DNA from: Alphaproteobacteria bacterium
Lineage (GTDB): Bacteria; Pseudomonadota; Alphaproteobacteria; CAAHEQ01; UBA3637
Assembly (NCBI GenBank): GCA_017533325.1
Contig: JAFXIF010000044.1
Location: 4,345-68,344 of the forward strand
Reading direction: 5' to 3'
DNA: 64,000 nucleotides
The translations under genes were made by a program, and so were the position numbers. Shown one piece after another: positions 46,192 to 62,393 of the stretch. Under the pieces are notes generated by a model. That model saw only the letters and a program-made list of their open reading frames with translations. It had not been told where the DNA came from and searched no databases. The stretch's first letter is position 1, and each line of letters opens with the position of its first letter.

Positions 46192-46926
46192 ATGTCAGAA
46201 AATAAAGATGCGGTAAATCAAAATTTTTCTTGCTTGGGAATAGGGGATAAAGCCCCTTCATTTGAAGCTGACTCAACTCTTGGAAAAATATCTTTTCCGG
46301 TTGATTTTGAAGGGTATTGGGTTATTTTGTTTTCGCATCCATCTGATTTTAGCGCTGTCTGCACAACGGAATTTATTTTTTTTGCTGAAATGATGAAGGA
46401 ATTTGAACGCTTAAATACAAAATTGCTCGGATTATCGGTTGATGGGTTAGCCAGTCATTTAGAATGGCTTTATAAAATTGAAACAGAAATTTCTTTTCAT
46501 GGAATTACGAATACAAAAATTAAATTTCCGCTTATTGCTGATTTGTCCGGTGAAATTGCATCTAAGTATGGGATGATTCACCCAAATATATCAAAGGTAA
46601 AGGCGGTTCGAAGTGTTTTTTTTGTTGATCCCAATGGTATCATCCGTGCAATTTTATTTTATCCTTTTTCAACCGGAAGAAATTTTGATGAACTTAAACG
46701 TGTTTTAATCAGTTTGCAACTTTCAGACAAATTAAATATCTCAACTCCCGCCAATTGGCAACCGGGGGATGATATTGTTCCGAAAGCACCGGATAATATC
46801 AACGAAGTCAATAGTCTGGCTAATGATGTTCGCAATAAATCCGGTGCATGGTTTTTATCACTGGAAGAGCTTTCAAAAGAAGATATTGAAATAGCCCTTC
46901 ACTCTAAAAGACAAAAATTTAATTAA
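46192..46926 (+). CDS. Peroxiredoxin (1-Cys/Prx6-like)
   Basis: 244 aa with peroxidatic Cys in FSAVCTTEF. Confidence 0.8.
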   Translation: MSENKDAVNQNFSCLGIGDKAPSFEADSTLGKISFPVDFEGYWVILFSHPSDFSAVCTTEFIFFAEMMKEFERLNTKLLGLSVDGLASHLEWLYKIETEISFHGITNTKIKFPLIADLSGEIASKYGMIHPNISKVKAVRSVFFVDPNGIIRAILFYPFSTGRNFDELKRVLISLQLSDKLNISTPANWQPGDDIVPKAPDNINEVNSLANDVRNKSGAWFLSLEELSKEDIEIALHSKRQKFN

Positions 46927-47206
46927 TTGTTTTTCGTTTATATGGATTTCCATAACTAAGACCAACAGGCGCGTTTTCGCTAATCATACAGTCAAAAAGA
47001 AAATAAGGCTCTCCTTGACCTGAAAAAAGTTCATCAAGGTAATATTTTATTTCTTCTTCAACTGATTGTTCCAATTCCCTTGGGGGAATTTTGTGTAACG
47101 GACATCTAAAATCAATCATCAAATCATCTTGAATGCGTTGTAATTTTTTTTGAATGCCGCGTTCAATAATATCGTATCGTTGTGCTTTTTCTTCAAGTGT
47201 TAACAT
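46919..47206 (-). CDS. Hypothetical protein (95 aa)
   Basis: Intact ORF downstream of the T4SS operon terminator. No recognisable motif. Confidence 0.3.
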   Translation of the reverse strand: MLTLEEKAQRYDIIERGIQKKLQRIQDDLMIDFRCPLHKIPPRELEQSVEEEIKYYLDELFSGQGEPYFLFDCMISENAPVGLSYGNPYKRKTIN

Positions 47207-47354: not shown

Positions 47355-48344
47355 CTATGTGACTTCTGTCACCGCGCGGATATTTCCATCTCGGTTGATT
47401 TGAACGACTCTTAATTTTTCTTTCATTTCACGATAGGTTTTTTCTCTATCTGTTGTCGGATAAGAGTGTAAAATACGTCCGATAAAAGCTTTATAAGCCG
47501 CATCCGGGTTTTCGGCATGGATAGTGGCAAAACAGTTTTCATGACCTGAACCCATTAATTCCCATAATGCACCTGCGTTGGAAGTTGAAATTTCACCACC
47601 GATAATGGCATCAGGGGTAAAGCGAACGGCAAGGTCAATCACTTTTTTATAGTCAAAATTATTTGTAAGTTCCGTTCTTGGTAAGACAATATGAACTCGA
47701 TTTTTATGCGGCACAATAAGTTCGCGTGTATCTTCAATGGTTAAAATACGTTTATGTGGGTCCAAGACCTTAATTAAATTATTTAAAAAGGTTGTTTTAC
47801 CAGTTGCCGTTGCCCCGGAGATTAAAACATGGTCACCGCGTTTAATAGAAAGCATTAATCTTTCAAAAGGATCATCTGGGTCTTCAACTTGTTTTAATCT
47901 GTTCAGCGGACGTAATCTTTCGCCGACACTTAAACCAAAATCGCTCATTGAAATATTAACGTCTTCTTTATAAACACGAATCGCCATAGCGATACCGCCG
48001 GTTAAATCGTTGTTATCATACATAACGTTTCTGCCGGCAATTCCGGTAAAACGATGTCCGCCTGGGAGCGTTGCATAAACAGTTGGTGTCCCTTGTGTCG
48101 GGTCAAAAGCATAATCATAAGAATTGGCAATAATATACATGATATTATTTAAATATTCTCGTGTTAGTTTTGGATCTTCATAGTAGTGCCATGGATGTGC
48201 ATGACGCCCGCGTAAGCGTAACCAAATACCGCCGGGAGAATCAACCGCAACTTCCTCAACATTATCTTGATTATACCAATAGGAAAGTGGGCGTAGAGCC
48301 GATTCTAAAACCCTATAGGTATCTGCAATCGATAATTCTCCCAT
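47355..48344 (-). CDS. virB11: Type IV secretion ATPase VirB11
   Basis: 329 aa with Walker A ISGATATGKTT and VirB11/TrbB-like length. Last gene of the operon. Confidence 0.85.
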   Translation of the reverse strand: MGELSIADTYRVLESALRPLSYWYNQDNVEEVAVDSPGGIWLRLRGRHAHPWHYYEDPKLTREYLNNIMYIIANSYDYAFDPTQGTPTVYATLPGGHRFTGIAGRNVMYDNNDLTGGIAMAIRVYKEDVNISMSDFGLSVGERLRPLNRLKQVEDPDDPFERLMLSIKRGDHVLISGATATGKTTFLNNLIKVLDPHKRILTIEDTRELIVPHKNRVHIVLPRTELTNNFDYKKVIDLAVRFTPDAIIGGEISTSNAGALWELMGSGHENCFATIHAENPDAAYKAFIGRILHSYPTTDREKTYREMKEKLRVVQINRDGNIRAVTEVT

Positions 48345-48360
48345 TCTTTATCATCCTTTT

Positions 48361-51300
48361 TTAAAACAATCTGTCAGAGGAGCCTGTTTTTGGTAGAACA
48401 GGTGTTACTTTTCTTTCCTCTACAGGTTGTTTTTCAACGCTGTCCCCAGTATAAATCGGTTCATTTGAATCTTCGTCAGAAGAGCCATCTTCATTATTAT
48501 ATTTGTCAGATGGTTTATAGTATTTACTATCATCAACTTCAGAGTTTTCGTCCTCATTAGTTTCTTCGTCTGATTCTTCCTCTTCTTCTTCGGATTTTTC
48601 TTCTTTAGATTCCTTTCGCGTGTCAACCCAAGAAGACGTATCCGGTGTTTGTGCTTCAGTTGAAACTTCTTCAGCTTCTTGGATGTCATCTTCTTCAGAT
48701 CTTAACCATAAATCTTCATTCGGGAAGACGGTTAAGCGCGTGCCTGACGGAACATAAATAACAACAGGAATATTTGCGGAATCTTCGATAAGTTGATCAA
48801 AGATTGTTTGCATAGATTCAATGAAGTTTTCTCTGGCATCATTTGCAGCTTCAGTTTTAGATGAAGTAATCGTGTTGCCATACATATCTTGATACATATC
48901 ATCATTTGTTGCCATCATGTAGGAAATAGCTGATGTAACAACGCTGGTCATAATCGGTTTACCGAATTTTTTAACCAATTCATCATCAAGATAAGCTGCA
49001 ACACCACCACGTCCTTGAGCATCACCTGATGTCCCTTCAAAGGAGAAAGCTCCTCCATCAGGACGGATAAGTCTTTGCCATGTGATTTCAAGTTTTGCCG
49101 CGCGTTTATCATTGCCTTGTTCACCGGCAAATGTTCCAATCAATCTGGAACCGGCCGGAATGATGATATTTCTTCCTTTTTCAGAATAAATATGTCTTTC
49201 AACAATGGCTGTAACAGGCATATCGGCATATCTGGAATCGATAGATCTTGTTAAGACTGCCGGAATTGCTTTGTCTTTCAAAATCATACGAGACATATCA
49301 ACAGGATAAGAAGATACAATTTTATTTACACCGATTGATTTCCAGTCCGCATCAGCTTTTTTACGAGCCATTGCTTTAATTTTTGAATTTGGTGTAATCA
49401 ATCCTCTTGATGCCATGCCGGCTTTCATTCCTTCTCGTTTTTGAGAAAGAATTTCTTGCATTTGTTGAATTTGTTCCGGTGTCGGTTTCAATTTTTTATC
49501 TGCAAAATTCGGACGAATACGACCTTGATCGTCACCTTGAGTGCTTAAGGGGCGTCCATCTAAAGTCATTGGTCTGCCATCTTGCATAAAGCCGACAATT
49601 TCATTTTGGTCATCTAAAATAGAACCATCCGGTGTAACTTGATATAATTTATTTCCGAATGAAATACGGCGTGTTCCGGCTTGTCCGGCTCCTCCTTGTG
49701 CATTTCTTAATGCTTCTAATTCTTCTTCAGAAAGTCCTTTAATACCACATTTATCCAAGCGAAGATCAAGGCCTTTAATTTTACCCATATCATTACCATC
49801 TTTATCTTTCAATAATCCGTTTTCATGAATGGTTGCATAGATTTCGCCATTCAACCCGATAATGGAGCCGTTTGGCATAATAGAAGCAATTTTTTCATTT
49901 TGAAGATTTAAAACATCACAACCTGAAATTTTTCCGAATGTATTTCCGTTGGCATCTACAAGTAGTCCGCTTTCAATATCACTTGGTAATTCGCCGTTTT
50001 CGCCGAGTTGTCCGATAACATTGCCATTTTCATCAACAATGTCTCCGTTTGGTAAAACCTGAGCAATAAATTTTCCTTCTGCATCTTTGATAACACCCTC
50101 AGAAGATAATGTCCCTTTAATATTACCTTTTTCGTCAAACAATAACTCTTCGTCACGGGAAACATTACGACCGATGATTTCACCTTTTTCGTTAACAACG
50201 TTGCCATCTGCGCGTAATACACCGATTTTTTCTCCGTTTTTGTTTACAACGTCCCCATTTAATTTAATTCGGCCGATTGGTTTTCCGTCTTTACCTAAAA
50301 CAAGCCCGCGTTCATGTGTTGCACCGATAACTTCGCCGGTTTTATGATCAACAACAGAACCGTCATTTCGGCTACATCCGATATTGATTCCGTTAACATC
50401 AACCACAGTTGAGTCCGGCATTGTGCGTCCGATATATTTTCCTTCAGGCGACATAACGATACCATTTCTTGTTACGCGACCGATTTTTTCACCTGAAGCA
50501 TTAACCGCCCATTTATCCGGTAAAATACGGCCAACAACCGTTCCTTTTGCATCAATAACTTGACCATTAAAAGCAGCTTGACCGACAACTTTACAATCAT
50601 TTGTAATTAATGCAGAAGGGATTAAGGCCCCTGTAATTTTATAAGTTCCTTCTTTAACCGTTCCATTAACGGCAATTTTCCCTTTTAATCCTCCGTTTGG
50701 AGAAACAATTTGCCCATTATGAATCAATGTCCCCATGAAAGAACCATCTTGTGAAATGGCAGTATAGAACGGCAAAACTGCACCGGCTAACGGTTCATCT
50801 TTGCCTAAAATAGTTCCGTCATCCAAAATGCGTAATGTTTTGCTGTCTGTTGCATCCAAAATATCACCGGAAAGAGTTGTTCGACCCAAAACATCCCCGC
50901 GATATCCAAACGGTAATCCTTGTTGGACAAGGCCACCTTTTTGAGGCATTGTGTTATATAAAGAACGATCTTGGATATCCGCAACAGAACCATCACTAAG
51001 CGCTCTTCCCGTCATTTGATTTGCATTGCCGATAACAGCGCCATCTGCAGCAACAGTTCCAAGAATTTTTGCATCATCATCAACAGCTACACCAAATGGA
51101 GCTTTTCCACCAGCCCAAAGATTATCGGAGGTGAGTGCAAAACCAAGAGGTGTTTGAACGGCAATGTTTCTTTCATCTTGATTAAAGATGGTTGCAGCAG
51201 TTTGTGTTTGACCGATTAAAAGGCCTGATTTCCCGACAAAAGCAGAAACAGGTAACGTCATACCACGAATATTGCCTTTTTCATTATAAAGGGCTCTGAT

Positions 51301-54300
51301 ACCTGAAGTGGAAGATTCTTTTTTACCTCTTAAGAAAATTGTTCCACTTAAGCTTTCGCGACCAACCGTGTTTAATGCATTTGATACAGCCGGTCCTGAG
51401 TAAACAACATTTCCTTGGATTTGTTTAATTAAGTTTGTTGCAAATCCGTTTGTCATTACCGAACCGAGAGGTTTTGAATTTCCGATGGATAAAATACTTC
51501 CGTTTGTTGAAATGATTCCCATTGTTTTGGCCGTGCTGTTTTCCGCAACAAATAAATCTTTGTCAGCCAATCTGGCAATAAAGTTCCCATCTTTTGCAAC
51601 AGTTTGCGGTGCAATGACTAAACCTTTTACTTGTCCTTTCCCATCAATAGCTTCACCGTATTCATTGATGAGATAAGAAAATTGATTATTGTCACCATAT
51701 CCGACTGAATTTAATGGGATAAATGTGCCTGTTATATCTCCCTTTGCATTTGCAATTCGGTTGTCAGATAATACATGGCCTAATTGTGATTTTGAAAGTC
51801 CGATGCGTCCGTCAGATTGAAGCAGTCCGGCAAACTTTCCGTTATTATCCACAGCAATCCCTTGTGGCAAAACTCTTCCGATTACTTCATCCATGTTATT
51901 GTAAATATAGTCTGAAGCATAAAGATAACCGGTATCTTTTTCAGCTGTAATGGTGTTATTAATTGACATGTAGCCGAGTAATTTTCCATTTGGTTTAACT
52001 GCAATACCAGTTTTTACAAGATAACCGATTTGATTCCCGGCTTTATCCAGACCAATTCCATTTGACATTAATCTTCCGATAGATCTTGAATTTTTGCCGT
52101 ATAAATCTGCATCAAAACTTGTCCATCCAATTAATTCATTCTTTGTATCAACATAAACGCCGAATGGAATCATTCTTCCGATAACGCCTTCAGAATTGAT
52201 AACCAATCCAAATGGGGTTGCTTGTCCGGCAATATTCCCATTTTTATCCATTATAGCCCCTGTTACACTTGGATAACCGATTAATTCTTCCGGAGAAAAA
52301 GCAAGGCTTAAGCGTTTAAAAACACCCCCGATAATTTTTTCATCAGATGAAATGGCAATCCCGTTTGCAAGAATTTTGCCGATAACTGTTTTCTTTGGTG
52401 AAATCACTTCGCCTTTAGGTGTAACCGAGCCGATTTCTTTACCTAAAACAGATAAAACTTTTCCATGAGGCATTTCAAAACCGATTACTTTTCCGTCCTT
52501 ATCCGTAACGGTTTTATTTGCTCTGATTGCCCCGATAATATCTCCGTCAGCATTCTTTAATGTGCCATCAACACCCATAGTGCCAAGATAATTATTATCT
52601 AAATCAAGAAAGGCTGTTTTATCAGGAATGAGAGTTCCGATAATTTTTTGAGTTTCACCGCTTATAGCAGTTAAATTTGGTAAAACACGGGCAAATCTTT
52701 CTCCTTCTTGATTCAATGCAAATCCGATTTTTGAATTGTAACGACCAAGAATCATACCATCTTGAGAAACGATAACTCCATCAGGTGGGATAACACCTAA
52801 AAATTTTCCGTTTGATGCAGAAACAATACCATCTTGGTCAACAGTGCCGATTTCATTTCCGTGGGCGTCATAAACTTTATCACCCATAACGGTCCAACCG
52901 GTCGGATTTCCGTTATCATCTAAAACAACTCCGTTAGGTGTATTTTGATTTCCGGATCCGACAACAGTTCCCAAAATTTCTTTACCATTTAAAGAAATAA
53001 CAGATCCATCTTCTTGAAGACATCCGATAATCTTTCCTTTTAAATCCATAACTTTACCATCAAGGCGCACACGACCGATAACAACACCTTCATTGTTTTT
53101 GACAACACCTTTGATAGCTAAAGCACCGATAATTTTTCCATTGTTATCAACAACAGTTTTATCCGGTGTTATACAACCAAACGGTTCATTATTCGCATCT
53201 GTTAAATCACCACCAATTGTGACAAGCCCTAATAAACGACATCCGTCAGCAATGGCAGAGGCTCTTGGAACAACAACACCGATAATGCGGTTTTGATCAT
53301 TTCGAACATAACTGTCCGTCATCACTTTGCCAACTTGTTCAAGTGAATCGTTAATGGCAATCCCGTTTGGGAAAACAGACCCGACTTGTTGACACCCAAA
53401 TCCGATGACGCGACCTTTTGGTAAAACAGAACCCACAGTCTTTTTACCAGCTGTTACAGATCCGTCCGGATTGACACAACCGATAACTGCTCCTTGGGGA
53501 CCAACGGCTTTACCTTCTGAATTTATAAATCCGATTGGATTGCCTTTTTCATTAATAACAAGCCCTAATTGAATAGCGCCGCCAATGTCCGTGCCGTCAT
53601 TGTTAATAACGCTTCCGTCAATTAATGTTTTTCCGACAGTTTGATTATATGAATCACGAACTTCACCATTTTGCATGATTTTGCCGGTTAATTGACATCC
53701 CGGAGCAACGGCAACCCCTTGAGGAATAGTTCCGCCAATAAGATCATTTGTGCTATTCACAACTAATCCGTTTGGTTTAACCATACCGATAACATTATTT
53801 GCTGCATCCATAACTGAACCGTCCGGAACAATTCCACCGATAACGTTACCTGTTAAATCGGCAACCAAACCCCATGGTCTTAAAACCCCTACTACACGGT
53901 TATTCAAATTGGCAACGGCACCGTTTGAAAGCGGTTTACCGATAACGGCACCTTTTTCATTTACAATTGTTCCGTCTTTTAATAATTTTCCGATTACATT
54001 TCCTGTCATATCCATAACCGAAACAATTGGGATGGCAGCCCCTAAAACATTTAATTCGGTATCAACAATGGTGTCATCTCCTAACAACCGACCGAGTTTG
54101 TCCCCATTTTCGTTAATTACATCACCATTTGGAGCAATTTTTCCCATGACCTCATTTTTTAAGTTAAGAGGTAATTTTTCGGGAACGGCAATAGCAACGA
54201 TTTTACCGTCTTTGTTGATATATAATCCGTTTTCAGTTGGTTTTATGACTTCACCGTCAATAACAATGGAGCCGTCTTCACCAACCGGATGCAATTTTCC

Positions 54301-54984
54301 ATCTAATCCCATTGCATATTTTTGTTCTTTTTCAGCATCATCCTTTGAAACTGATTCGCAAATAACACAATCTTTTGAATCGGTTGATTGAGCTTTTACT
54401 TGAACGGTTGTTTTCTTTTCTCTGTCAGAAAAACCGGCGGCAGTTGCAGAATCTTCTTCCCATTGAATAGTCAAAACATTTTGGATTTGTCTTAAAGAAA
54501 CAGGATTCCATAAAACTTTAATCAAGCATTCTTGCCCACTTGCCAAAGATTCATTTTCTTTACAAGTTGTTTCCATTGAAAATCCGTCTTGTTGATTTTC
54601 AAGAAATGTTGCCCCCTTGTAAAGAACAGCTCCGTTTTCGGCAGTTAATTTAATCAGCGCTTCGACTTGTGAACCGATAACAACATTATTCATATCAATT
54701 TGTTCAGGGACAACTTTTAAAGTAACATCCCCTCTGGCAAATCCTTGAAATTGACCGCCTTGTTCGTCTTTTTGGGTTTGGTATTCATCACCCCAGTCAA
54801 TATTTGTTGTTGTGTCTTGAACGGGCGCTTTTTCAGAGATAAAGGAAAGCGCTACAAAAAATACAATAAGAAGAAACAAACCGCCGAATAAAAGTTTCCT
54901 GTTGCTTTTTTTTACATATTGCTCACTAGAGCTTAATCCTCTGTTTTCTTTCATTGCTAACCCATTTCTTTTCTGTCGGAACAA
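48361..54984 (-). CDS. virB10: Giant VirB10-family protein (CagY-like) with a ~1700-aa degenerate repeat region
   Basis: 2207 aa. N-terminal cytoplasmic segment and single TM, then >100 degenerate ~12-13-aa repeats (xDGxVxDxxGxxIGxV), a C-terminal VirB10/TrbI domain (IPAGSRLIGTFAGEQ…VVIYVPSGTRLTVF), and an acidic Ser/Glu/Asp tail. Confidence 0.7.
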   Translation of the reverse strand: MFRQKRNGLAMKENRGLSSSEQYVKKSNRKLLFGGLFLLIVFFVALSFISEKAPVQDTTTNIDWGDEYQTQKDEQGGQFQGFARGDVTLKVVPEQIDMNNVVIGSQVEALIKLTAENGAVLYKGATFLENQQDGFSMETTCKENESLASGQECLIKVLWNPVSLRQIQNVLTIQWEEDSATAAGFSDREKKTTVQVKAQSTDSKDCVICESVSKDDAEKEQKYAMGLDGKLHPVGEDGSIVIDGEVIKPTENGLYINKDGKIVAIAVPEKLPLNLKNEVMGKIAPNGDVINENGDKLGRLLGDDTIVDTELNVLGAAIPIVSVMDMTGNVIGKLLKDGTIVNEKGAVIGKPLSNGAVANLNNRVVGVLRPWGLVADLTGNVIGGIVPDGSVMDAANNVIGMVKPNGLVVNSTNDLIGGTIPQGVAVAPGCQLTGKIMQNGEVRDSYNQTVGKTLIDGSVINNDGTDIGGAIQLGLVINEKGNPIGFINSEGKAVGPQGAVIGCVNPDGSVTAGKKTVGSVLPKGRVIGFGCQQVGSVFPNGIAINDSLEQVGKVMTDSYVRNDQNRIIGVVVPRASAIADGCRLLGLVTIGGDLTDANNEPFGCITPDKTVVDNNGKIIGALAIKGVVKNNEGVVIGRVRLDGKVMDLKGKIIGCLQEDGSVISLNGKEILGTVVGSGNQNTPNGVVLDDNGNPTGWTVMGDKVYDAHGNEIGTVDQDGIVSASNGKFLGVIPPDGVIVSQDGMILGRYNSKIGFALNQEGERFARVLPNLTAISGETQKIIGTLIPDKTAFLDLDNNYLGTMGVDGTLKNADGDIIGAIRANKTVTDKDGKVIGFEMPHGKVLSVLGKEIGSVTPKGEVISPKKTVIGKILANGIAISSDEKIIGGVFKRLSLAFSPEELIGYPSVTGAIMDKNGNIAGQATPFGLVINSEGVIGRMIPFGVYVDTKNELIGWTSFDADLYGKNSRSIGRLMSNGIGLDKAGNQIGYLVKTGIAVKPNGKLLGYMSINNTITAEKDTGYLYASDYIYNNMDEVIGRVLPQGIAVDNNGKFAGLLQSDGRIGLSKSQLGHVLSDNRIANAKGDITGTFIPLNSVGYGDNNQFSYLINEYGEAIDGKGQVKGLVIAPQTVAKDGNFIARLADKDLFVAENSTAKTMGIISTNGSILSIGNSKPLGSVMTNGFATNLIKQIQGNVVYSGPAVSNALNTVGRESLSGTIFLRGKKESSTSGIRALYNEKGNIRGMTLPVSAFVGKSGLLIGQTQTAATIFNQDERNIAVQTPLGFALTSDNLWAGGKAPFGVAVDDDAKILGTVAADGAVIGNANQMTGRALSDGSVADIQDRSLYNTMPQKGGLVQQGLPFGYRGDVLGRTTLSGDILDATDSKTLRILDDGTILGKDEPLAGAVLPFYTAISQDGSFMGTLIHNGQIVSPNGGLKGKIAVNGTVKEGTYKITGALIPSALITNDCKVVGQAAFNGQVIDAKGTVVGRILPDKWAVNASGEKIGRVTRNGIVMSPEGKYIGRTMPDSTVVDVNGINIGCSRNDGSVVDHKTGEVIGATHERGLVLGKDGKPIGRIKLNGDVVNKNGEKIGVLRADGNVVNEKGEIIGRNVSRDEELLFDEKGNIKGTLSSEGVIKDAEGKFIAQVLPNGDIVDENGNVIGQLGENGELPSDIESGLLVDANGNTFGKISGCDVLNLQNEKIASIMPNGSIIGLNGEIYATIHENGLLKDKDGNDMGKIKGLDLRLDKCGIKGLSEEELEALRNAQGGAGQAGTRRISFGNKLYQVTPDGSILDDQNEIVGFMQDGRPMTLDGRPLSTQGDDQGRIRPNFADKKLKPTPEQIQQMQEILSQKREGMKAGMASRGLITPNSKIKAMARKKADADWKSIGVNKIVSSYPVDMSRMILKDKAIPAVLTRSIDSRYADMPVTAIVERHIYSEKGRNIIIPAGSRLIGTFAGEQGNDKRAAKLEITWQRLIRPDGGAFSFEGTSGDAQGRGGVAAYLDDELVKKFGKPIMTSVVTSAISYMMATNDDMYQDMYGNTITSSKTEAANDARENFIESMQTIFDQLIEDSANIPVVIYVPSGTRLTVFPNEDLWLRSEEDDIQEAEEVSTEAQTPDTSSWVDTRKESKEEKSEEEEEESDEETNEDENSEVDDSKYYKPSDKYNNEDGSSDEDSNEPIYTGDSVEKQPVEERKVTPVLPKTGSSDRLF

Positions 54985-55009
54985 ATATTTAAATGATTTT
55001 CAAAGAAGT

Positions 55010-56788
55010 TTATTGAACGCGAACAACTGAACATCCAAAGCCGCGACGGCCTAATCTTTTGCATAATTTGTCGGCCAAAGTGATATCCTTAATCGGACCG
55101 ACACGCAAACGGAATAATTCGCGCATATTACTGTCTGCTGTTGTATCAACAGAATAATATGGTTCATATCCTTTTAAAACATCAGAGTTCTTTTCAAGAA
55201 TTTTTTCCCAAATGCTTTCAAGTTCTGTAATGTCAGCGTGTGTGCCAAGTTCAATCGAAATGGTTTCGCTTGTTGCCAAACCGGAATTTCTTTGAGTTGA
55301 AATCGGCATTTGACTCATAACCCCAACAATACCTGCAGAGGCTTGAGGTGAATTCATAACATTTGCCGGAATAGATTGGATTGGAGCCATATCGCCAGAA
55401 TAAATTGATCCGCCTTGCGGTGCATATTGAGGAATATAGTTTCCTGCATAGGAATCATAAATCATTCCTTGAGGATACATATTGTTTGATTGTTGCGTAT
55501 ATGAATTTTGTTGATAAGAATTCATCATTTTTGGTGTTGGAGCTAACGGACTTCTTTCAACAATTTTTTCGCTTTCTGTTTCACTCATTGCAGTCGGATC
55601 ATAAGCCGGAGCATCTTGGCTCATAACACTCGGGCGACCTGTATAAGGTGAAACAGTCATATTTTCAGCACCACTGTAATCTGTATATTCAAGACCGGCG
55701 CTTGGATCTCTTCTGAGTTTTAAGCAAATAAGTTTTTTGCCGTTTCTTAAAACCAAATCACCAATAGCTTCAACAACAATTAAACGACTGTTTGGCCCGG
55801 TTGTTCTAAATCCGACCGGAACTTCCGTATCTTGAACCAAAAGGCTGACCACCGGACGTTGTGTCATCGTTAATGCTTTCGGGCCCAAGTCAATGTATGT
55901 GAAAATATTATCGCGCCATACATTATCCGGAGCAATATCAACATCAGATGGATTTGGAATATAAATATCTATGTCAAAACGAATGTTTTCAGGGTCAACC
56001 GGAATGCTTTGCAACCAGTTTTTAGGGCCGGTTGAAGCTGTATTAATGCCTAATTGCGGATTTTGTCCGCCACTTCTACCGATTGCCCAACCGGGAGCTT
56101 TGTTGGAATTTAAAAATCCGTTACCGACAGCTCTGTTTGTGGCGCCGTTCATTCCGCCTAAACGTCCACCATTTTCAACCGGTGTATATCTCGGGCCAAC
56201 TAACACGTCAACAACAGATTGTGAAATTTTTTCGGCATTGTAAGTTTCGCTTCTTAAATAGAAAACATATCGGTTGCCGGATCTACCAAAAATAATCATA
56301 TTACTGTCAACCCCGATATAAGAGGGATCAGCATATAAAAGAAGAGAGTTTGGTGCGGCAATTTCACCACCAAATGATTCCGGAGAACCGATATGAACTT
56401 TTTCAATTAATTCCCATGTCGGTAAGTTGATAAGTGTCATCATACCTTCTCTTAAACGAATGGGTAAAATCACATCAGGTGACCAAGCGTATTTTGAATA
56501 CCCCGGTTTTGATTGACCTTCACCTAAATGTGCCATCGGATCGTTCCATGCTTTTTGTTGCATGCCGAGTGAATGTAAGTAATTTGGGTTAACAGATTCA
56601 TAATCGCCGTTTGTTTGAGCGATAGCGTCGCTTAAACGTTCACTTTCAGCATCTGTAGGCAACCCCTCTGAATGTGCAACAACAGAAAATAAAACAAAAA
56701 TAGCAGCCGTTGACAGCCAACCTTGTCTGTGAAGTTTTTGTTTGAACATAGAATCTCTCCTCTTTATTTTTGTAATATATTTACACAA
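55010..56788 (-). CDS. virB9: VirB9-like (CagX-like) T4SS protein with a C-terminal SPOR-like peptidoglycan-binding domain
   Basis: 592 aa with a signal peptide. Sits between virB8 and virB10. The C-terminal 70 aa (FRLRVGPIKDITLADKLCKRLGRRGFGCSVVRV) resembles a SPOR domain, preceded by a Q/Y/P-rich linker. The VirB9 call rests mainly on position and size. Confidence 0.5.
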   Translation of the reverse strand: MCKYITKIKRRDSMFKQKLHRQGWLSTAAIFVLFSVVAHSEGLPTDAESERLSDAIAQTNGDYESVNPNYLHSLGMQQKAWNDPMAHLGEGQSKPGYSKYAWSPDVILPIRLREGMMTLINLPTWELIEKVHIGSPESFGGEIAAPNSLLLYADPSYIGVDSNMIIFGRSGNRYVFYLRSETYNAEKISQSVVDVLVGPRYTPVENGGRLGGMNGATNRAVGNGFLNSNKAPGWAIGRSGGQNPQLGINTASTGPKNWLQSIPVDPENIRFDIDIYIPNPSDVDIAPDNVWRDNIFTYIDLGPKALTMTQRPVVSLLVQDTEVPVGFRTTGPNSRLIVVEAIGDLVLRNGKKLICLKLRRDPSAGLEYTDYSGAENMTVSPYTGRPSVMSQDAPAYDPTAMSETESEKIVERSPLAPTPKMMNSYQQNSYTQQSNNMYPQGMIYDSYAGNYIPQYAPQGGSIYSGDMAPIQSIPANVMNSPQASAGIVGVMSQMPISTQRNSGLATSETISIELGTHADITELESIWEKILEKNSDVLKGYEPYYSVDTTADSNMRELFRLRVGPIKDITLADKLCKRLGRRGFGCSVVRVQ

Positions 56789-56905: not shown

Positions 56906-57604
56906 TTATGAATCAGCTTTTTTTATCACGAGCTGAATAACTGTAAATCCAAGTGGGTTTTTAAGTCTTTCTTCCCAAGTTAATCCTTCACGAACGGGTT
57001 TGAAAGCAACATTCATTGTGACAACCCATCTTGATTTTTTCGGTTCGCTGGATAAGTGTTTCATTTCCGTAAATTCAACTTCTGCACGCCAAATGTTTTC
57101 ATTCTTGTTGGTGCGATAAGGATTAACAACTAAAATTTTGACATTACGGGTTAATCCTTCTTCTTTTGCTTGTTGGATCCAATCTTCGGCATATTCAGTA
57201 AATTTTGTATAGACCGTAGGTTCGCTCATCCAGTTAATTTCCCCATCAATTCCGGTTCGTCTTTCTAATTCTTGAATGTTTGAACCGATATTAAAATAGG
57301 AGAGCAAATATTGTCTGATAAAGGACTCAGTCAATGTTTGCATATTCATTTGACTAAAATTAGGTCGAACAACATTAACAACTTGTTCGTTTTTATTAAG
57401 TGTTGTTAAAAAAAATGGTTGAACTCTGACAATAGGCATTAAAGATGTAAGAGCAGTGATAAGCATAATAGTTGTTAAAGTTGAAACAACTAAAACAAGC
57501 GCAAACGTTCGCGCCATCCAAAGATAACGTCTTTCTTTAACGGCTTCTTCTGATAAATCTTGTCCTTGTTTTTTTTGTTGGACTTTTTGATTGCTCATTG
57601 TCAT
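56906..57604 (-). CDS. virB8: VirB8 (paralogue a)
   Basis: 232 aa. Cytoplasmic N-terminus, single TM, periplasmic NTF2-like domain pattern (ERRYLWMARTFALVLVVSTL…). Confidence 0.65.
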   Translation of the reverse strand: MTMSNQKVQQKKQGQDLSEEAVKERRYLWMARTFALVLVVSTLTTIMLITALTSLMPIVRVQPFFLTTLNKNEQVVNVVRPNFSQMNMQTLTESFIRQYLLSYFNIGSNIQELERRTGIDGEINWMSEPTVYTKFTEYAEDWIQQAKEEGLTRNVKILVVNPYRTNKNENIWRAEVEFTEMKHLSSEPKKSRWVVTMNVAFKPVREGLTWEERLKNPLGFTVIQLVIKKADS

Positions 57605-57622
57605 AAGAATAAATATTTCTTG

Positions 57623-57814
57623 TTAAGATAACCAATCCGGAAGAGCAGGGGCTTTTTCAAGTTCAAGGCATGCACAAGGTGATTTTTTTAATTCAGAATA
57701 ATCCGGACCGATTCCAACAGGTTCTTTTTCATAAACACTACCGCAAGCTGCAGCCAAAACGGTCAATCCTAAAACAAATAAAACAACAAAATATTTTTTC
57801 ATTTTTTTCCTCAT
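57623..57814 (-). CDS. VirB7-like small lipoprotein
   Basis: 63 aa with lipobox LAAACGS. Located between the two virB8 paralogues, as in rvh clusters. Confidence 0.45.
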   Translation of the reverse strand: MRKKMKKYFVVLFVLGLTVLAAACGSVYEKEPVGIGPDYSELKKSPCACLELEKAPALPDWLS

Positions 57815-57891
57815 ATTTTTGTGAATTACAAACTCAGTTTATCGAAAGAAAAATAATTAATCAACCAAAAAAAACATTATTTTAAAATATT

Positions 57892-58590
57892 TTATTTTTT
57901 GACAGCTTCATCATATTTTTGTATGTAAAAACCAAAAGGGTTGGCAAAGGTTCGTGAATAAATGTGTCTGTTTGGATAATGCCCGACGGTGATTGTTGCC
58001 ACCCGCTGTTGAACGCGCGGTTTAACAATCGGGTCATAAGGATTATAAATAAAAACATCAAATTCAATGGTATATGTATTACCAAGTTTTGAGATATTTG
58101 TGATTTCAACACTTTGGGTTTCTTTTGCCGTAGAAATTTGTTTAATCTTTTCTTGTATGTTTTTTGAAAATTTAGCATAAACAGCCGGGGAAGATAGCCG
58201 TCTGATTTCTCCGCGAGCTCCCCATCTGGATGTCATTTCATTTTTATCCGCAAAATAAGAAACTCTTCTGTCAATATAATATCTGATTAACATTTCATCT
58301 AACAATTCACGATTAGCCCGATTACTGTGAGATTTTGAATCCATTAATCTATTTGCCGGTAAAGTATCGATTTGGATGTGATCTAACGTATTCATGGGAG
58401 AGGGTAAAATTTGAGCAATCACTTTTAATTTTGGCGCCATTTGAACCAATGTTAAAACAATGAACAAGTTAATAGCAATGGAAATAGCCGTCAATGTCAT
58501 CCAAAATTTTGCCCAATAAAGTGCAAATTTTCCTCGAGTTTTTTGGTCCTTGATAAAATAAGAAAGCACTAAAGACCTCCTTCTAAACAT
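57892..58590 (-). CDS. VirB8 (paralogue b)
   Basis: 232 aa with the same topology as VirB8a (KFALYWAKFWMTLTAISIAINLFIVL…). Confidence 0.55.
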   Translation of the reverse strand: MFRRRSLVLSYFIKDQKTRGKFALYWAKFWMTLTAISIAINLFIVLTLVQMAPKLKVIAQILPSPMNTLDHIQIDTLPANRLMDSKSHSNRANRELLDEMLIRYYIDRRVSYFADKNEMTSRWGARGEIRRLSSPAVYAKFSKNIQEKIKQISTAKETQSVEITNISKLGNTYTIEFDVFIYNPYDPIVKPRVQQRVATITVGHYPNRHIYSRTFANPFGFYIQKYDEAVKK

Positions 58591-60122
58591 CTTTTGTTTA
58601 TTTTTGTGTTATATGCTTTTTTGATGTCTTCCTTGTTCTTTTTTTCAAGTTCTTCATAAAGGGCATTTTCTGCTTGTTTTTCTTTTAATAAATGGTCTAT
58701 TTCTTGAGCATTTATAACCGTAAAATTAACACTGCCGTTGATGTCTTTTTCAAGTGCATTAACATAATTAAAATCCTGATAGGCTTGAGAAAAATACATG
58801 ATATGTTTAAGCTGTCTGTATTCTTCAGAATCTTTTTCAAGCGAATCAAGAGCATTTAATTGCTCAATATAAGACATTTTTAAATAAGTTTTAAATGAGT
58901 CCGGCTTATTTTTTGTATCCCCAATATCGGAATGTTTTTTTGTTATTTTATCTCGAACAGTTTGAATGTTTTTGCTTTTAAGTTGTAATAATTCTTCTTC
59001 TAAACGACTAACAGATTCAATATTATCAGCTTCAATAGCTGTTTGAATGCCAAGATCTTTTAGTCTGCTGTTTAATTCGTTAACAGCGGAAGATTTAGCA
59101 TTACTTGTAACGTTTAATGTATTTTCTGCACTTGTTTTTTCTTTTTTTATTGCTTGATAAACATTTAATCTGTTGTTTTGTTGGCTGGCGTCCATATGTC
59201 TCATGTCTTCATTTAAGACCAAGCTTTTGGGCAAAAATGTTTTTGCCATTTCACCATTTTCATTATATGTGTTAAATCCGCTTTGAATAAATTTTTGCCA
59301 GGGTTGAGGCCATTGAGGAAAAACAGATTTTGATTTTGCAGGATCTTCAGTAAACCACATAATTTCATGAGCCGGCGGTAATGCTTTGGGTGGTTTGGGG
59401 AATGTTTTTTGTGTTTCTGATAATTTTTGAAGTTGATCCGGGGGCAATGATGATAAAAATGTTTTATAGGCCGATTCATTTTGTTCAAAATTATTTTCAG
59501 CAGTGATACCGTTTATTCGACCGGTTCTCCCTAAAATTTTATTTACATCTTGCAAAAAAGAGTTCACTTCGTCTGCATAGACATATTTTTGATCTTCCCA
59601 TAAATCAAAAGATTTCCCCTCTTTTAGTTTTCCATATTTCTCTGGATTTGCATAAACATCTGTTAAAACTTCTTTCCCTAAATACCAGTTGGCAAAAAGT
59701 TCTGTTTGTGCTTTTTTCCCTGTGTTTTTTTGTTGAGGCATACTGTTTAAAATATCAACTGTTAATTTGAGCTCTCTGTCATCATATTCTTGAGTGATAT
59801 TTTTCCAAGCCGTTTTGGGATCTTCATAGACATCGGAGAGCAAATTGATATTACATGCCTCCATTGAATTATATTTTTGATTTATTAAATCAACTTGAAG
59901 TTTTTCTTGCTCTTCTTCTTGGTATCGTTTTTTTAAATTTCTAACTTTAATTTGCATAGCATGCAGTTGTTCAAGATATATTATTTCTCTTGTATAATCA
60001 TCAGATTCAATGGCTTCTTCGGTTTCTTGAGAAGCAATTTCAATAGGAGCTGTTGCATGAGTAAAACTGATAAATGAAAAAAATGAAATACCTGATAATG
60101 CTAAAAATAAAAATGGTTTCAT
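58569..60122 (-). CDS. T4SS-associated secreted coiled-coil protein (517 aa from ATG 60122)
   Basis: Signal peptide MKPFLFLALSGISFFSFISFTHA. The start overlaps the upstream gene's stop in ATGA. The ORF track extends to 60161 with a TTG start. Confidence 0.45.
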   Translation of the reverse strand: MKPFLFLALSGISFFSFISFTHATAPIEIASQETEEAIESDDYTREIIYLEQLHAMQIKVRNLKKRYQEEEQEKLQVDLINQKYNSMEACNINLLSDVYEDPKTAWKNITQEYDDRELKLTVDILNSMPQQKNTGKKAQTELFANWYLGKEVLTDVYANPEKYGKLKEGKSFDLWEDQKYVYADEVNSFLQDVNKILGRTGRINGITAENNFEQNESAYKTFLSSLPPDQLQKLSETQKTFPKPPKALPPAHEIMWFTEDPAKSKSVFPQWPQPWQKFIQSGFNTYNENGEMAKTFLPKSLVLNEDMRHMDASQQNNRLNVYQAIKKEKTSAENTLNVTSNAKSSAVNELNSRLKDLGIQTAIEADNIESVSRLEEELLQLKSKNIQTVRDKITKKHSDIGDTKNKPDSFKTYLKMSYIEQLNALDSLEKDSEEYRQLKHIMYFSQAYQDFNYVNALEKDINGSVNFTVINAQEIDHLLKEKQAENALYEELEKKNKEDIKKAYNTKINKRCLEGGL

Positions 60123-60901
60123 TGTTGATTTTCCTCCGGCAACTCTTCTTTGGGGTTCCAATATGTTTTATGGCGTTTTGCAGTCGCAAGACCCAGAAGG
60201 GCATTGTATTGTAATTGTGCAGCTCTTAATTGTTTTTGAATCATGAGTAATTTTGCCCATGTAATTTTTGCAAAGGCAGTTGTCATTAAAAGTTTGGTTT
60301 TATTTTCATTGCTTTCCAATGCCCCTTGATTAGAAGCTTTTTTAGATGAATCATCAATTTTTGTTTCCATATCATCAATGATCTTAAATATTTCTTTTGT
60401 TTGGTGTTTTAATACCAATATTCTTGCTAATAACTGAAGATTGGCTTGTTGGCGTATATATTGTCTTTTTTTAACAAAATTATAATCCCCCTCATGATCG
60501 GCAAAAGGTTGATCCGCATAGACCTCCATATTGCTTTTCATAATATTTTTAATCGTTGATGTTGCAGGGTCAGCTCGTTTTACAACTATTTCTTTTGGGG
60601 GTGTTCCTTTGGGAACAAAATCGCCAGGGGAGGCGTTTAAAATATCTAAAATTGTTGTTGACCCGCCTTGAATTGTTGAAATCGTGTCATTTACAATGGC
60701 TGTTGCGCGTTCTGAATAATAATGGCCTTGTTTTAGTACTTCGGCTACTCCTCTTGAAGCAGTGTCAGTTACACTTCCGGGTTCCAAAATTGGCCCTCCG
60801 ACACCGGCAATCCAACAAGGGTCACACGGCAAACAAATAGAATAAGCCGATAAAGATGTTGAAAATGTTAATATAAAAAGAAGGGAAGAAATTATTTTCA
60901 T
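60119..60901 (-). CDS. T4SS-associated secreted protein (260 aa)
   Basis: Signal peptide, Cys-rich mature N-terminus (CLPCDPC). 4-nt overlaps on both sides. Confidence 0.4.
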   Translation of the reverse strand: MKIISSLLFILTFSTSLSAYSICLPCDPCWIAGVGGPILEPGSVTDTASRGVAEVLKQGHYYSERATAIVNDTISTIQGGSTTILDILNASPGDFVPKGTPPKEIVVKRADPATSTIKNIMKSNMEVYADQPFADHEGDYNFVKKRQYIRQQANLQLLARILVLKHQTKEIFKIIDDMETKIDDSSKKASNQGALESNENKTKLLMTTAFAKITWAKLLMIQKQLRAAQLQYNALLGLATAKRHKTYWNPKEELPEENQQ

Positions 60902-61614
60902 TTTTTATCTCCTTCAGTGTCTTCTGGCGCACCAATTTTTTTAAGTGTTAAAATAGTCGGTTGGTCTTTGATAAATTGTTGAACAACATCTACTTCCATT
61001 TGAACAATTTGCAAAATGATTTGCGAAGCAACCATTTTTATTTGAGCTTTAATATTTCGGTTGAGCATGGCATTGCTTTGTGTTTGATTACAACCTTTTC
61101 CGGAAGCAACTTGCATGGATTGCATGTCTTCAATAAAAAGAGGTCGAAGTTGCTGAGCAAGCGAGTAAGCTTCAGCTGCAACTTCTGAAGCAAAGTTAAC
61201 CCTATTTTGAAGTTTTGTTAGGGCAGATTCTTTATCCCCTTCTTGCAAAAAGAAGTTTTTTTTCAACATGTCCAAAGCTGTTTTATACTTTTCTTGTGGA
61301 GAAATATATGTTGATTCGAAAAGCTTCATAATATTTGCTTCTAAATAATCATAGGTCTTTGTTGTTATTTCTGTTTTTTTGTTTGAAGGTGCATTAGAGC
61401 AAGAGGCGTTTCCGGATCGAGTATTATTTGCGATCTCTTCTTGTGTAACAACTTCTGCGCCTAAACTTGTAGTCAGTTGTGTTGCAATATTACTGCCTGC
61501 AAGTAGAGGAATATTTTTTATATCAGTAACGAGGCATTGACTAAAGGCTGTATGACATAATAATCCAGCGGCTAAAAAAGAAGAAAACAGATGTATTTTA
61601 AAGTTTTTTTTCAT
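60898..61614 (-). CDS. Secreted alpha-helical protein, possible VirB5/TrbJ-like minor pilin paralogue (238 aa)
   Basis: Signal peptide, with size and helical/Q-rich character similar to VirB5. The assignment is an inference. Confidence 0.35.
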   Translation of the reverse strand: MKKNFKIHLFSSFLAAGLLCHTAFSQCLVTDIKNIPLLAGSNIATQLTTSLGAEVVTQEEIANNTRSGNASCSNAPSNKKTEITTKTYDYLEANIMKLFESTYISPQEKYKTALDMLKKNFFLQEGDKESALTKLQNRVNFASEVAAEAYSLAQQLRPLFIEDMQSMQVASGKGCNQTQSNAMLNRNIKAQIKMVASQIILQIVQMEVDVVQQFIKDQPTILTLKKIGAPEDTEGDKK

Positions 61615-61625
61615 TTTTTTCTCCT

Positions 61626-62384: not shown

Positions 62385-62393
62385 GTTATCCTC

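What the first reader, a model, noticed from the sequence alone, without database searches (positions are those of the whole stretch)
48361..54984. 2207-aa VirB10 carrying >100 degenerate 12-13-residue repeats between the TM segment and the VirB10 barrel domain
A typical VirB10 is 380-500 aa. Here about 1700 aa of periodic xDGxVxDxxGxxIGxV repeats (beta-solenoid-like) are inserted, followed by a bona fide VirB10 C-terminal domain and a long acidic tail. The only well-known parallel is Helicobacter CagY, where repeat regions recombine to modulate T4SS function. The repeats here are degenerate at the DNA level, which argues for a structural spacer or extended periplasmic/surface sheath rather than a recombining array. 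Either way it would be an unusual core-complex architecture.
Basis: seen in the sequence. Interest (0 to 1): 0.75.

Follow-up and report, generated by a model that had tools for sequence, protein, structure and literature searches.

The report
Giant VirB10 with beta-flower repeat array
The channel-forming VirB10 subunit of a type IV secretion system in uncultured gut Alphaproteobacteria carries a fixed, strongly conserved insertion of about 88 beta-hairpins (about 1,585 residues, "beta-flower" type), a third and previously undescribed way of enlarging this machine after Helicobacter CagY and Legionella DotG.

Summary
The ORF is real: 48361..54984 on the minus strand, 2207 codons from TTG. The likely start is the ATG at 54954, giving 2197 aa. 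It is not an artefact, because more than 110 protein clusters and 65 species-level loci encode it in one conserved operon: VirB8, VirB7, VirB8, VirB9-SPOR, VirB10, VirB11.

The repeat description was off. The period is 17 aa, not 12-13, and there are about 88-91 units over about 1,585 aa. The units match Pfam beta-flower families rather than a solenoid, and an Ig-like (ASH/PapD) domain precedes them.

The array does not behave like CagY or DotG. It shows no length variation among strains and aligns without gaps across species. dN/dS is 0.06-0.17. Each unit resembles its positional ortholog (51%) far more than its neighbours (17%).

A sister lineage encodes the same architecture as two adjacent genes, split inside the array.

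Best reading: a fixed, self-associating periplasmic scaffold around the T4SS channel. That mechanism is inferred, not shown.

Verdict: new variant of a known kind.

The parts
48361..54984 (-). Whole ORF: 2207 codons from TTG. The probable CDS is 48361..54954 (ATG), 2197 aa, 233 kDa.
   Evidence: The homologs P0001 and others start at the ATG.
54895..54954 (-). Basic N-terminal cytoplasmic tail, aa 11-30 (MKENRGLSSSEQYVKKSNRK), conserved motif SSSEQYxKKSNR.
   Evidence: pI 10.2. The cytoplasmic location is inferred from the positive-inside rule and VirB10 topology.
54838..54894 (-). Single transmembrane anchor, aa 31-49.
   Evidence: 19 uncharged L/F/I/V/G residues. Part of a long helix in the AF2 model.
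54727..54837 (-). Disordered acidic linker, aa 50-86.
   Evidence: pLDDT below 50. Poorly conserved.
54352..54726 (-). Ig-like ASH/PapD/MSP-type beta-sandwich, aa ~87-211. It has four invariant Cys, including a CxxC in the most conserved peptide of the family (KAQSTDSKDCVICE).
49564..54318 (-). Repeat array, aa 223-1807. About 88 beta-hairpins of 17 aa, consensus P-[DN]-G-x-V-x-[DN]-x-x-G-x-x-I-G-x-V-x, 165 kDa. There are three length-invariant blocks separated by variable hinges at aa ~206-267, ~661-700 and ~1651-1810.
   Evidence: period and consensus. (Pfam Bflower_2 at 211 bits, Bflower, DUF3659; 11 of 15 tiles positive). (AF2 pLDDT about 85-95, 176 strands). (blocks and hinges).
49300..49563 (-). 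Basic linker with a conserved helix (PEQxxQMQxLLxQKR), aa 1808-1895.
   Evidence: helix at aa 1836-1859; pI 10.1.
48697..49299 (-). VirB10/TrbI C-terminal barrel domain, aa 1896-2096, including two long 'antenna' helices at aa ~2001-2025 and ~2042-2070 (48775..48984).
48364..48696 (-). Disordered acidic C-terminal tail, aa 2097-2207, ending in a conserved ...PVLPK......LF motif.
   Evidence: pLDDT below 50; P2185 and F2197 nearly invariant; length varies 39-162 aa.
47355..48344 (-). VirB11-type ATPase gene, 16 nt downstream in the same operon.
   Evidence: Brucella VirB11 2gza, 5e-15; adjacent in 62 loci.
55010..56788 (-). VirB9/CagX homolog, 592 aa, with a low-complexity linker and a C-terminal SPOR (peptidoglycan-binding) domain. 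It lies 55 nt upstream.
   Evidence: SPOR segment found in 63 loci.
56906..58590 (-). VirB8 (57892..58590), VirB7-like 63-aa lipoprotein (57623..57814) and VirB8 (56906..57604).
   Evidence: the two VirB8 copies are 24% identical. The order is as in the Rickettsia typhi rvh islet.

Best explanation
**Identity.** This is the VirB10 (outer-membrane channel and envelope-bridging) subunit of a chromosomal, vertically inherited P-type T4SS. The operon layout resembles the Rickettsiales rvh system. The hosts are a clade of uncultured gut and rumen Alphaproteobacteria.

**Anchoring (inferred).**
- The C-terminal domain is expected to form the O-layer and outer-membrane pore together with VirB9 and VirB7, as in known systems.
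- The N-terminal tail and TM helix anchor the protein in the inner membrane.

**The insertion.** The usual proline-rich linker is replaced by two elements:
- an Ig-like domain;
- a fixed-length chain of about 88 beta-hairpins, packed as beta-flower-type small barrels.

**Proposed role (inferred).**
- The chain is a rigid, position-specific structural module, not a variable or recombining one.
- Repeated around the ring at the usual roughly 14-fold stoichiometry, it would add about 2.3 MDa.
- I propose that it forms a periplasmic cage or collar around the channel.
- This would be analogous to the collar attributed to the DotG and CagY repeat regions.
- The conserved SPOR domain on VirB9 probably tethers the complex to peptidoglycan.
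- A sister lineage makes the same architecture from two polypeptides split within the array, so the arrays presumably associate non-covalently.

**Shown versus inferred.**
- Shown: domain identities, repeat anatomy, conservation, purifying selection, operon context and the split variant.
- Inferred: periplasmic location, oligomeric cage, stoichiometry and function.
For: **VirB10 identity**
- Pfam TrbI scores 5e-33, NCBIfam T4SS_VirB10 domain 2.4e-32 and phmmer to ComB10 1e-16.
- The antenna helices are present in the model.

**Operon**
- The order VirB8, VirB7, VirB8, VirB9, VirB10, VirB11 is conserved in at least 56 loci.
- The genomic context is chromosomal housekeeping genes.

**Repeat anatomy**
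- The period is 17 aa.
- Pfam Bflower_2 scores 211 bits with 10 stretches.
- AF2 gives pLDDT 84 and pTM 0.79 for aa 11-1200, and pLDDT about 90 for the repeats in aa 1010-1740.

**Fixed architecture**
- All 11 listed full-length members of the 90% cluster are 2197 aa.
- 1585 of 1585 residues align without gaps in 5 of 6 species pairs at 65-90% identity, with dN/dS 0.06-0.17.
- The three repeat blocks vary by only 0-4 aa in most of 110 clusters.
- Units are 17% identical to each other but 51% identical to their positional orthologs.

**Other**
- The SPOR domain on VirB9 is found in 63 loci.
- The split two-gene version is present in L066 and L067.
- DotG repeats have been proposed by others to form a periplasmic collar.
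Against: - No coordinates were available, so I could not verify closure of the barrels, the end-to-end length of the chain or any ring-forming interface.
- By rough size estimate (inference), about 18 small barrels in a row would exceed a normal periplasmic width. The packing is therefore unknown.
- VirB4, VirB6, VirD4 and VirB2 were not found in the 64-kb window or in the flanks inspected, so completeness of the machine is unproven.
- All evidence comes from metagenome-assembled genomes. No expression or imaging data were found.
- dS is near saturation (about 0.6-1.6), so the dN/dS values are approximate.
- The NCBIfam VirB10 hits are below their curated whole-protein cutoffs.
Confidence: 0.6

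Rival explanations
1. Passive length spacer or 'ruler'. The array only sets the distance between the inner-membrane anchor and the outer-membrane channel, for example in an unusually wide periplasm, and makes no specific contacts.
For: The total length is tightly conserved. The array occupies the position of the proline-rich linker of ordinary VirB10.
Against: A spacer needs length, not identity. Here each unit is conserved position by position, 51% against 17%, with dN/dS 0.06-0.17. The split lineage breaks the chain in the middle, which a simple tether would not tolerate. A pTM of 0.79 suggests a defined overall fold.
Confidence: 0.15
2. Ligand-binding array. The beta-flower modules bind peptidoglycan or lipid, so the array anchors the machine in the wall or handles lipids. 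[quoted passage not shown]
Confidence: 0.12
3. CagY/DotG-like variable, host-exposed repeat region that changes length by recombination to tune or disguise the T4SS.
For: It resembles CagY and DotG in overall layout, with repeats between the TM segment and the VirB10 domain.
Against: There are no long DNA repeats and no strain-level length variants. Alignment across species is gapless and selection is strongly purifying. The units are beta-hairpins, not the alpha-helical CagY module. Both termini are fixed in the envelope.
Confidence: 0.03
4. Extracellular fibre or adhesin. The array is threaded outside the cell and contacts a host or prey cell.
For: In the split lineage the repeat-bearing N-terminus of the VirB10 chain is free after signal-peptide cleavage. 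The three hinges and the tail vary between species.
Against: In the window's protein the array lies between an inner-membrane anchor and the outer-membrane domain. The repeats are under strong purifying selection with no diversifying signal. Conserved Cys residues fit the periplasm equally well.
Confidence: 0.07
5. Assembly or frameshift artefact fusing a repeat protein to a normal VirB10.
For: A two-gene form exists in a sister lineage.
Against: The single ORF recurs in more than 110 clusters and 65 species-level loci from independent studies and hosts. The full-length members listed for its 90% cluster all have the identical length of 2197 aa. The two-gene form has its own Shine-Dalgarno sequence, start codon and conserved signal peptide.
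Confidence: 0.01

Closest known systems
Helicobacter pylori CagY (VirB10 homolog, about 1,900 aa)
   Different: CagY repeats are alpha-helical modules encoded by direct DNA repeats that recombine and change length between strains. Here the units are 17-aa beta-hairpins, degenerate at DNA level, with a fixed number and position-specific conservation.
Legionella/Coxiella DotG (IcmE), type IVB VirB10 homolog
   Same: The repeats lie between the membrane anchor and the TrbI domain. Others have proposed that the repeat region forms a periplasmic 'collar'.
   Different: DotG has 10-aa (pentapeptide-like) repeats. Their number varies even within a species, and recombination is high. It belongs to a type IVB system. 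Here there is no variation and the fold class is different.
Canonical VirB10/TraF/TrwE/ComB10 (about 380-500 aa)
   Same: N-terminal tail, single TM segment, C-terminal barrel with antenna helices, and neighbourhood with virB8, virB9 and virB11.
   Different: The proline-rich periplasmic linker is replaced by about 1,750 aa (Ig-like domain plus beta-flower array), and a 111-aa tail is added. The nearest normal-size relatives (495-830 aa, at most 43% identical in the C-terminal domain) have no beta-flower signal.
Rickettsiales vir homolog (rvh) T4SS islet
   Same: Duplicated VirB8 with a VirB7 gene between the copies, followed by VirB9, VirB10 and VirB11. The other T4SS genes are not adjacent.
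   Different: No VirD4 follows VirB11. VirB9 carries SPOR. VirB10 is about 4-5 times longer. Relatedness to rvh was not tested phylogenetically.
Beta-flower proteins (Pfam PF21784/PF21785, clan CL0395; Durairaj et al. 2023)
   Same: Strong Pfam matches, hairpin 'petals' and a [DN]xxG turn motif.
   Different: The described beta-flowers are single small domains of unknown function, often enclosing a C-terminal helix or lipoprotein-anchored. Here about 88 petals are chained in one polypeptide inside a secretion-system subunit, and no enclosed helices are predicted.

Membership tests
VirB10/TrbI family (T4SS core subunit) | C-terminal TrbI/VirB10 beta-barrel domain | tested here: met
VirB10/TrbI family (T4SS core subunit) | Two-helix antenna projection inside the barrel domain | tested here: met
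   The AF2 model has helices at aa ~2001-2025 and ~2042-2070 between barrel strands. Local pLDDT is only about 50-80.
VirB10/TrbI family (T4SS core subunit) | Short cytoplasmic N-tail plus one TM helix (bitopic inner-membrane anchor) | tested here: met
   Basic 20-aa tail and a 19-aa uncharged hydrophobic segment. Helix in the model. The topology itself is inferred.
VirB10/TrbI family (T4SS core subunit) | Proline-rich extended periplasmic linker | tested here: not met
   Replaced by the Ig-like domain and the beta-hairpin array. Pro is only 57 of 1585 residues in the array.
VirB10/TrbI family (T4SS core subunit) | Encoded with virB8, virB9 and virB11 | tested here: met
VirB10/TrbI family (T4SS core subunit) | Assembles as a ~14-mer with VirB7/VirB9 and spans both membranes | not testable with these tools
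   Needs multimer modelling or imaging.
Beta-flower fold (Pfam CL0395: PF21784, PF21785) | Sequence match above the Pfam gathering score | tested here: met
   PF21785 scores 211.3 bits (cutoff 38) with 10 stretches. PF21784 scores 64.6 bits (cutoff 25). 11 of 15 tiles of 210 aa are positive.
Beta-flower fold (Pfam CL0395: PF21784, PF21785) | Beta-hairpin petals with a [DNEQ]xxG motif at the tip | tested here: met
   Consensus positions 7-10 are [DN]-x-x-G. The hairpin pattern is E5-turn-E3 in the models.
Beta-flower fold (Pfam CL0395: PF21784, PF21785) | Petals close into 4-, 5- or 6-fold small barrels | tested here: inconclusive
CagY-type recombining repeat VirB10 | Long direct DNA repeats that allow in-frame recombination | tested here: not met
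CagY-type recombining repeat VirB10 | Length variants among closely related strains | tested here: not met
   All 11 listed full-length members of the 90% cluster are 2197 aa (15 of 22 members were listed; the shorter ones lie on short contigs). The neighbouring cluster is 2197-2199 aa.
DotG/IcmE-type VirB10 | 10-aa/pentapeptide-like repeats of variable number | tested here: not met
   The period is 17 aa and there is no Pentapeptide Pfam hit.
Rickettsiales vir homolog (rvh) T4SS | Islet order B8, B7, B8, B9, B10, B11 with duplicated VirB8 | tested here: met
   compared with R. typhi.
Rickettsiales vir homolog (rvh) T4SS | VirD4 next to VirB11; duplicated VirB4 and VirB9, multiple VirB6; phylogenetic affiliation | tested here: inconclusive
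   No VirD4, VirB4 or VirB6 in the window or the inspected flanks.

The most novel reading that the evidence does not exclude
The 14 or so copies of this VirB10 would contribute about 250 beta-flower barrels (about 2.3 MDa). These would build a new kind of ordered periplasmic cage or tube around a T4SS channel. That would give the orphan beta-flower fold its first cellular role and define a third class of 'expanded' T4SS, widespread in mammalian gut Alphaproteobacteria. In addition, a sister lineage splits the protein inside the array, with an inner-membrane-anchored half and a signal-peptide-bearing outer-membrane half. Covalent inner-to-outer membrane continuity of VirB10, central to the energy-transduction model, would then be dispensable.
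Probability: 0.35. Interest if true: 0.8.

Novelty: new variant of a known kind. Interest (0 to 1): 0.65.

Why it matters
- **A third route to an enlarged VirB10.** VirB10 is the subunit that links the inner-membrane motors to the outer-membrane pore in all Gram-negative T4SSs. Only two repeat-expanded versions are discussed in the literature, CagY and DotG, and where their repeat regions sit is still unresolved. This family is a third, independent expansion with opposite evolutionary behaviour: fixed, position-specific and under purifying selection.
- **A tractable structural target.** AlphaFold models the region with high confidence, so it may be a better route to learning what such regions build in the periplasm.
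- **A context for the beta-flower fold.** It places this fold, described in 2023 with no known function, in a defined machine.
- **A natural experiment.** The two-gene version bears on whether VirB10 must be one continuous chain.
- **Prevalence.** The host clade is common in ruminant, rabbit, horse and human gut metagenomes but is uncultured, so its T4SS biology is essentially unexplored.

Tried and rejected
- **TRF.** It found no tandem DNA repeats in the array, only in the acidic tail.
- **My first motif regex.** It had the wrong spacing and gave 2 hits. I corrected it.
- **Structure prediction inputs.**
  - The 85-sequence alignment was too large.
  - I solved this with 42 rows.
- **Fold searches.**
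  - The afdb50 library was not available.
- **Model coordinates.** They are not exposed, so I could not measure barrel closure, chain length or packing.
- **Exact-sequence look-ups.** I tried the window's upstream ORFs, to extend the locus beyond 64 kb. They are not on record.
- **Other T4SS genes.**
  - I found no VirB4, VirB6 or VirD4 in the window or in the L019 flanks.
  - NCBIfam gave nothing for the six upstream ORFs.
- **Literature.**
  - A search for RF32, Alphaproteobacteria and T4SS returned nothing.
  - Among the 10 highest-ranked results of the 'VirB10 or DUF3659' search, none mentions DUF3659.
  - I therefore make no claim about order-level taxonomy.
- **Readings considered and rejected.** CagY-like recombination, assembly artefact and beta-solenoid (see the rival explanations).

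Full report
**1. The observation**

The ORF is real. It runs 48361..54984 on the minus strand as one uninterrupted frame of 2207 codons from a TTG.

- The 110 full-length homologs all begin at the methionine encoded by the ATG at 54954. The real product is therefore most likely 2197 aa and 233 kDa.
- The gene lies 55 nt downstream of a VirB9 homolog and 16 nt upstream of a VirB11 homolog.

The repeat periodicity is unambiguous, but it is 17 residues and not 12-13.

- Self-identity at lag 17 is 19% against a background of about 6%, with harmonics at 34, 51, 68 and 85.
- The consensus unit is P-[DN]-G-x-V-x-[DN]-x-x-G-x-x-I-G-x-V-x.
- The two AlphaFold models contain 176 strands, i.e. about 88 hairpins, between aa 223 and 1807.
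- At DNA level the copies are at most about 80% identical over at most 50 nt, with spacings that are multiples of 51 nt. TRF sees no array.

**2. Anatomy (ORF numbering from the TTG)**

| Region (aa) | Feature | Evidence |
|---|---|---|
| 11-30 | Basic tail | |
| 31-49 | TM helix | |
| 50-86 | Disordered linker | |
| ~87-211 | Ig-like ASH/PapD/MSP sandwich | |
| 223-1807 | Hairpin array | |
| 1808-1895 | Basic linker with a conserved helix | |
| 1896-2096 | VirB10/TrbI domain with two antenna helices | |
| 2097-2207 | Disordered acidic tail ending in a conserved ...LF | |

- **Ig-like domain.**
  - Foldseek hits CEP192 ASH, HYDIN and the PapD/Caf1M chaperones.
  - The Pfam ASH hit, at 3.8e-4, is below its cutoff.
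  - The domain has four invariant cysteines. Two of them form a CxxC inside the family's most conserved peptide.
- **Hairpin array.**
  - It matches Pfam Bflower_2 at 211 bits in 10 stretches, and also Bflower and DUF3659.
  - The signal is detectable in 11 of 15 tiles of 210 aa. The middle of the array, aa ~1055-1475, is too diverged for Pfam.
  - AlphaFold nevertheless models that middle section as the same hairpins, at pLDDT about 90.
- **Model quality.** The first half scores pLDDT 84 and pTM 0.79. The second half scores pLDDT 75 and pTM 0.62.
- **Link to the beta-flower description.** One of those barrels is At5g01750. Durairaj et al. use the same protein (as entry 1ZXU) as their Tubby-like comparator for beta-flowers.

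**3. It is not an artefact, and it is widespread**

- A word-indexed search found 185 related proteins. More than 110 clusters at 90% identity are full length, at 2063-2609 aa, with identity down to 28%.
- A scan of one genome per GTDB species returned 65 distinct loci.
  - 60 are labelled uncultured Alphaproteobacteria.
  - Five carry other labels: Holdemanella, Lactobacillales (two), SIG53 and 'Pseudomonadota bacterium'.
  - The sources are yak, goat, buffalo, roe deer, rabbit, horse and human (Hadza, Nepal) gut or rumen.
- The operon u530, VirB8, VirB7-like lipoprotein, VirB8, VirB9, VirB10, VirB11 is conserved in at least 56 loci.
- This is the same order as the Rickettsia typhi rvh islet.
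- The surroundings are housekeeping genes: RNase E, HtpG, MipZ, peroxiredoxin, IleRS and Rho. This points to a chromosomal, vertically inherited system.

**4. How the array evolves**

- All 11 listed full-length members of the window's 90% cluster are exactly 2197 aa.
- Against six species at 65-90% identity, the 1585-aa array aligns without a single gap in five cases, and 1584 of 1585 residues align in the sixth.

| Region | dN/dS |
|---|---|
| Repeat array | 0.06-0.17 |
| VirB10 C-terminal domain | 0.005-0.07 |
| Acidic tail | 0.13-0.36 |

- dS is near saturation, so these ratios are approximate.
- Across 110 clusters, three repeat blocks of 393, 510 and 440 aa differ by only 0-4 aa in most sequences.
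- Length variation is confined to three hinges (homolog numbering ~196-257, 651-690 and 1641-1800) and to the tail.
- Units are 17% identical to one another but 51% identical to their positional orthologs.
- The array is therefore ancient, and each unit is individually constrained.
- CagY and DotG behave in the opposite way. Their repeat numbers vary by recombination even within a species.

**5. Wider family**

- An exhaustive search with the C-terminal domain shows that relatives of 1,400 aa or more carry beta-flower repeats. They fall into two size classes, about 1,400-1,930 aa and about 2,085-2,600 aa.
- The nearest normal-size VirB10s (495-830 aa, at most 43% identity) have only TrbI.
- Most of the mid-size class (21 of 23 sampled) starts with a cleavable-looking Sec signal peptide, AxA|QEITAIDFNGD, instead of a tail plus TM segment.
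- In two independent loci, the gene immediately upstream of the mid-size VirB10 encodes the missing N-terminal half.
  - That gene is 1104 or 1145 aa long.
  - It encodes the VirB10-type tail, a TM segment, the Ig-like domain with its CxxC, and about 50 repeats.
  - It aligns to aa 13-1006 of the window protein. The downstream gene aligns to aa 825-2108.
  - The junction reads GGAGGAAC-TAA-GTG, i.e. a Shine-Dalgarno sequence and an adjacent start codon.
- The single chain in the window therefore corresponds to two polypeptides in the sister lineage. The direction of the event, fusion or fission, is unknown.

**6. Mechanism**

*Shown:* the domain identities, the repeat anatomy, the conservation and the genomic context.

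*Inferred from established VirB10 biology:*
- The C-terminal domain forms the outer-membrane pore and O-layer with VirB9 and VirB7.
- The TM segment anchors the protein in the inner membrane.
- The array must therefore lie in the periplasm.

*My proposal (confidence about 0.6 for the whole statement):*
- The array is a rigid, position-specific scaffold.
- Repeated about 14-fold, it would add about 2.3 MDa (165 kDa x 14).
- It would form a cage or collar around the channel. This is analogous to the collar that others attribute to the DotG and CagY repeats.
- The conserved SPOR domain on VirB9 would tether the complex to peptidoglycan.
- The split lineage implies that the arrays associate non-covalently.

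*Rivals:* passive spacer (0.15), ligand-binding array for peptidoglycan or lipid (0.12), extracellular fibre (0.07), CagY-like variable region (0.03) and artefact (0.01).

*Limits:*
- No model coordinates were available.
- No multimer model was made.
- VirB4, VirB6 and VirD4 were not seen in the accessible DNA.
- The evidence comes from MAGs only.

**7. Comparison and novelty**

- By domain, context and fold, the protein is a member of the VirB10/TrbI family. It lacks the proline-rich linker.
- By sequence, it is a member of the beta-flower Pfam families. Closure of the barrels could not be verified.
- It is not a CagY-type or DotG-type repeat protein, because it fails their defining features.
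- No paper in the searchable library links beta-flower to a T4SS. Among the 10 highest-ranked results of the 'VirB10 or DUF3659' search, none mentions DUF3659. Databases label these proteins only as 'TrbI/VirB10 family', 'DUF3659 domain-containing' or 'hypothetical'.
- I rate it a new variant of a known kind, with interest 0.65.

Noticed in passing
L066:4686-12536 and L067:5601-13638: In a sister lineage the giant VirB10 is encoded as two abutting genes. The first (1104 or 1145 aa) carries the tail, TM segment, Ig-like domain with CxxC and about 50 repeats. The second (1511 or 1545 aa) carries a Sec signal peptide, repeats, the TrbI domain and a ...PALF end. The junction reads GGAGGAAC-TAA-GTG.
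   Followed up: partly
window 55010..56788 (-): The VirB9/CagX homolog is 592 aa. It has a Q/N/Y/P-rich low-complexity linker and a C-terminal SPOR (peptidoglycan-binding) domain, which is found in 63 related loci. Pfam did not flag SPOR for VirB9 in the split-lineage loci L066 and L067.
   Followed up: partly
window 48364..48399 (-), and the C-termini of the homologs: The disordered tail varies in length (39-162 aa) and in composition: acidic here, S/P/G-rich in the mid-size class. It almost always ends in P-x-L-F with a terminal Phe, which suggests a tethered docking motif.
   Followed up: no
window 54358..54564 (-): There are four invariant cysteines in and just after the Ig-like domain (aa 141, 153, 206, 209). 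They include a CxxC inside KAQSTDSKDCVICE, the most conserved peptide of the whole family. Further nearly invariant Cys residues occur within the repeats.
   Followed up: no
window 58569..63931 (-): Six co-oriented ORFs lie upstream of the first VirB8: 530, 260, 238, 252, 254 and 258 aa. Five have signal peptides. None matches a Pfam or NCBIfam family, and they show no detectable similarity to one another. The 530-aa one is conserved in 44 loci. They may be lineage-specific T4SS or surface components.
   Followed up: partly
window 57623..57814 (-): A 63-aa lipoprotein ORF (lipobox LAAC) lies between the two VirB8 genes and is conserved in 57 loci. It is VirB7-like by position and size, with no family hit.
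   Followed up: partly
window 7808..11422 (+): A 1204-aa hydrophilic, K/E-rich protein that looks helical, with no TM segment and no Pfam or NCBIfam match. It could be a secreted effector.
   Followed up: no
L041, L045, L057: Three loci with the same alphaproteobacterial operon sit in assemblies labelled Holdemanella biformis or Lactobacillales. These are probably mis-binned or mislabelled contigs.
   Followed up: no
window 46919..47206 (-): A 95-aa ORF lies just downstream of VirB11. It is conserved at 80-93% identity in the 9 closest loci, together with the adjacent peroxiredoxin gene, and has no family hit.
   Followed up: no
window 48001..56000: The VirB10 gene has a higher G+C (0.38-0.40) than the window average (about 0.33) and a negative GC skew. 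This is consistent with its Gly-rich (15%) coding content on the minus strand rather than with foreign origin.
   Followed up: no
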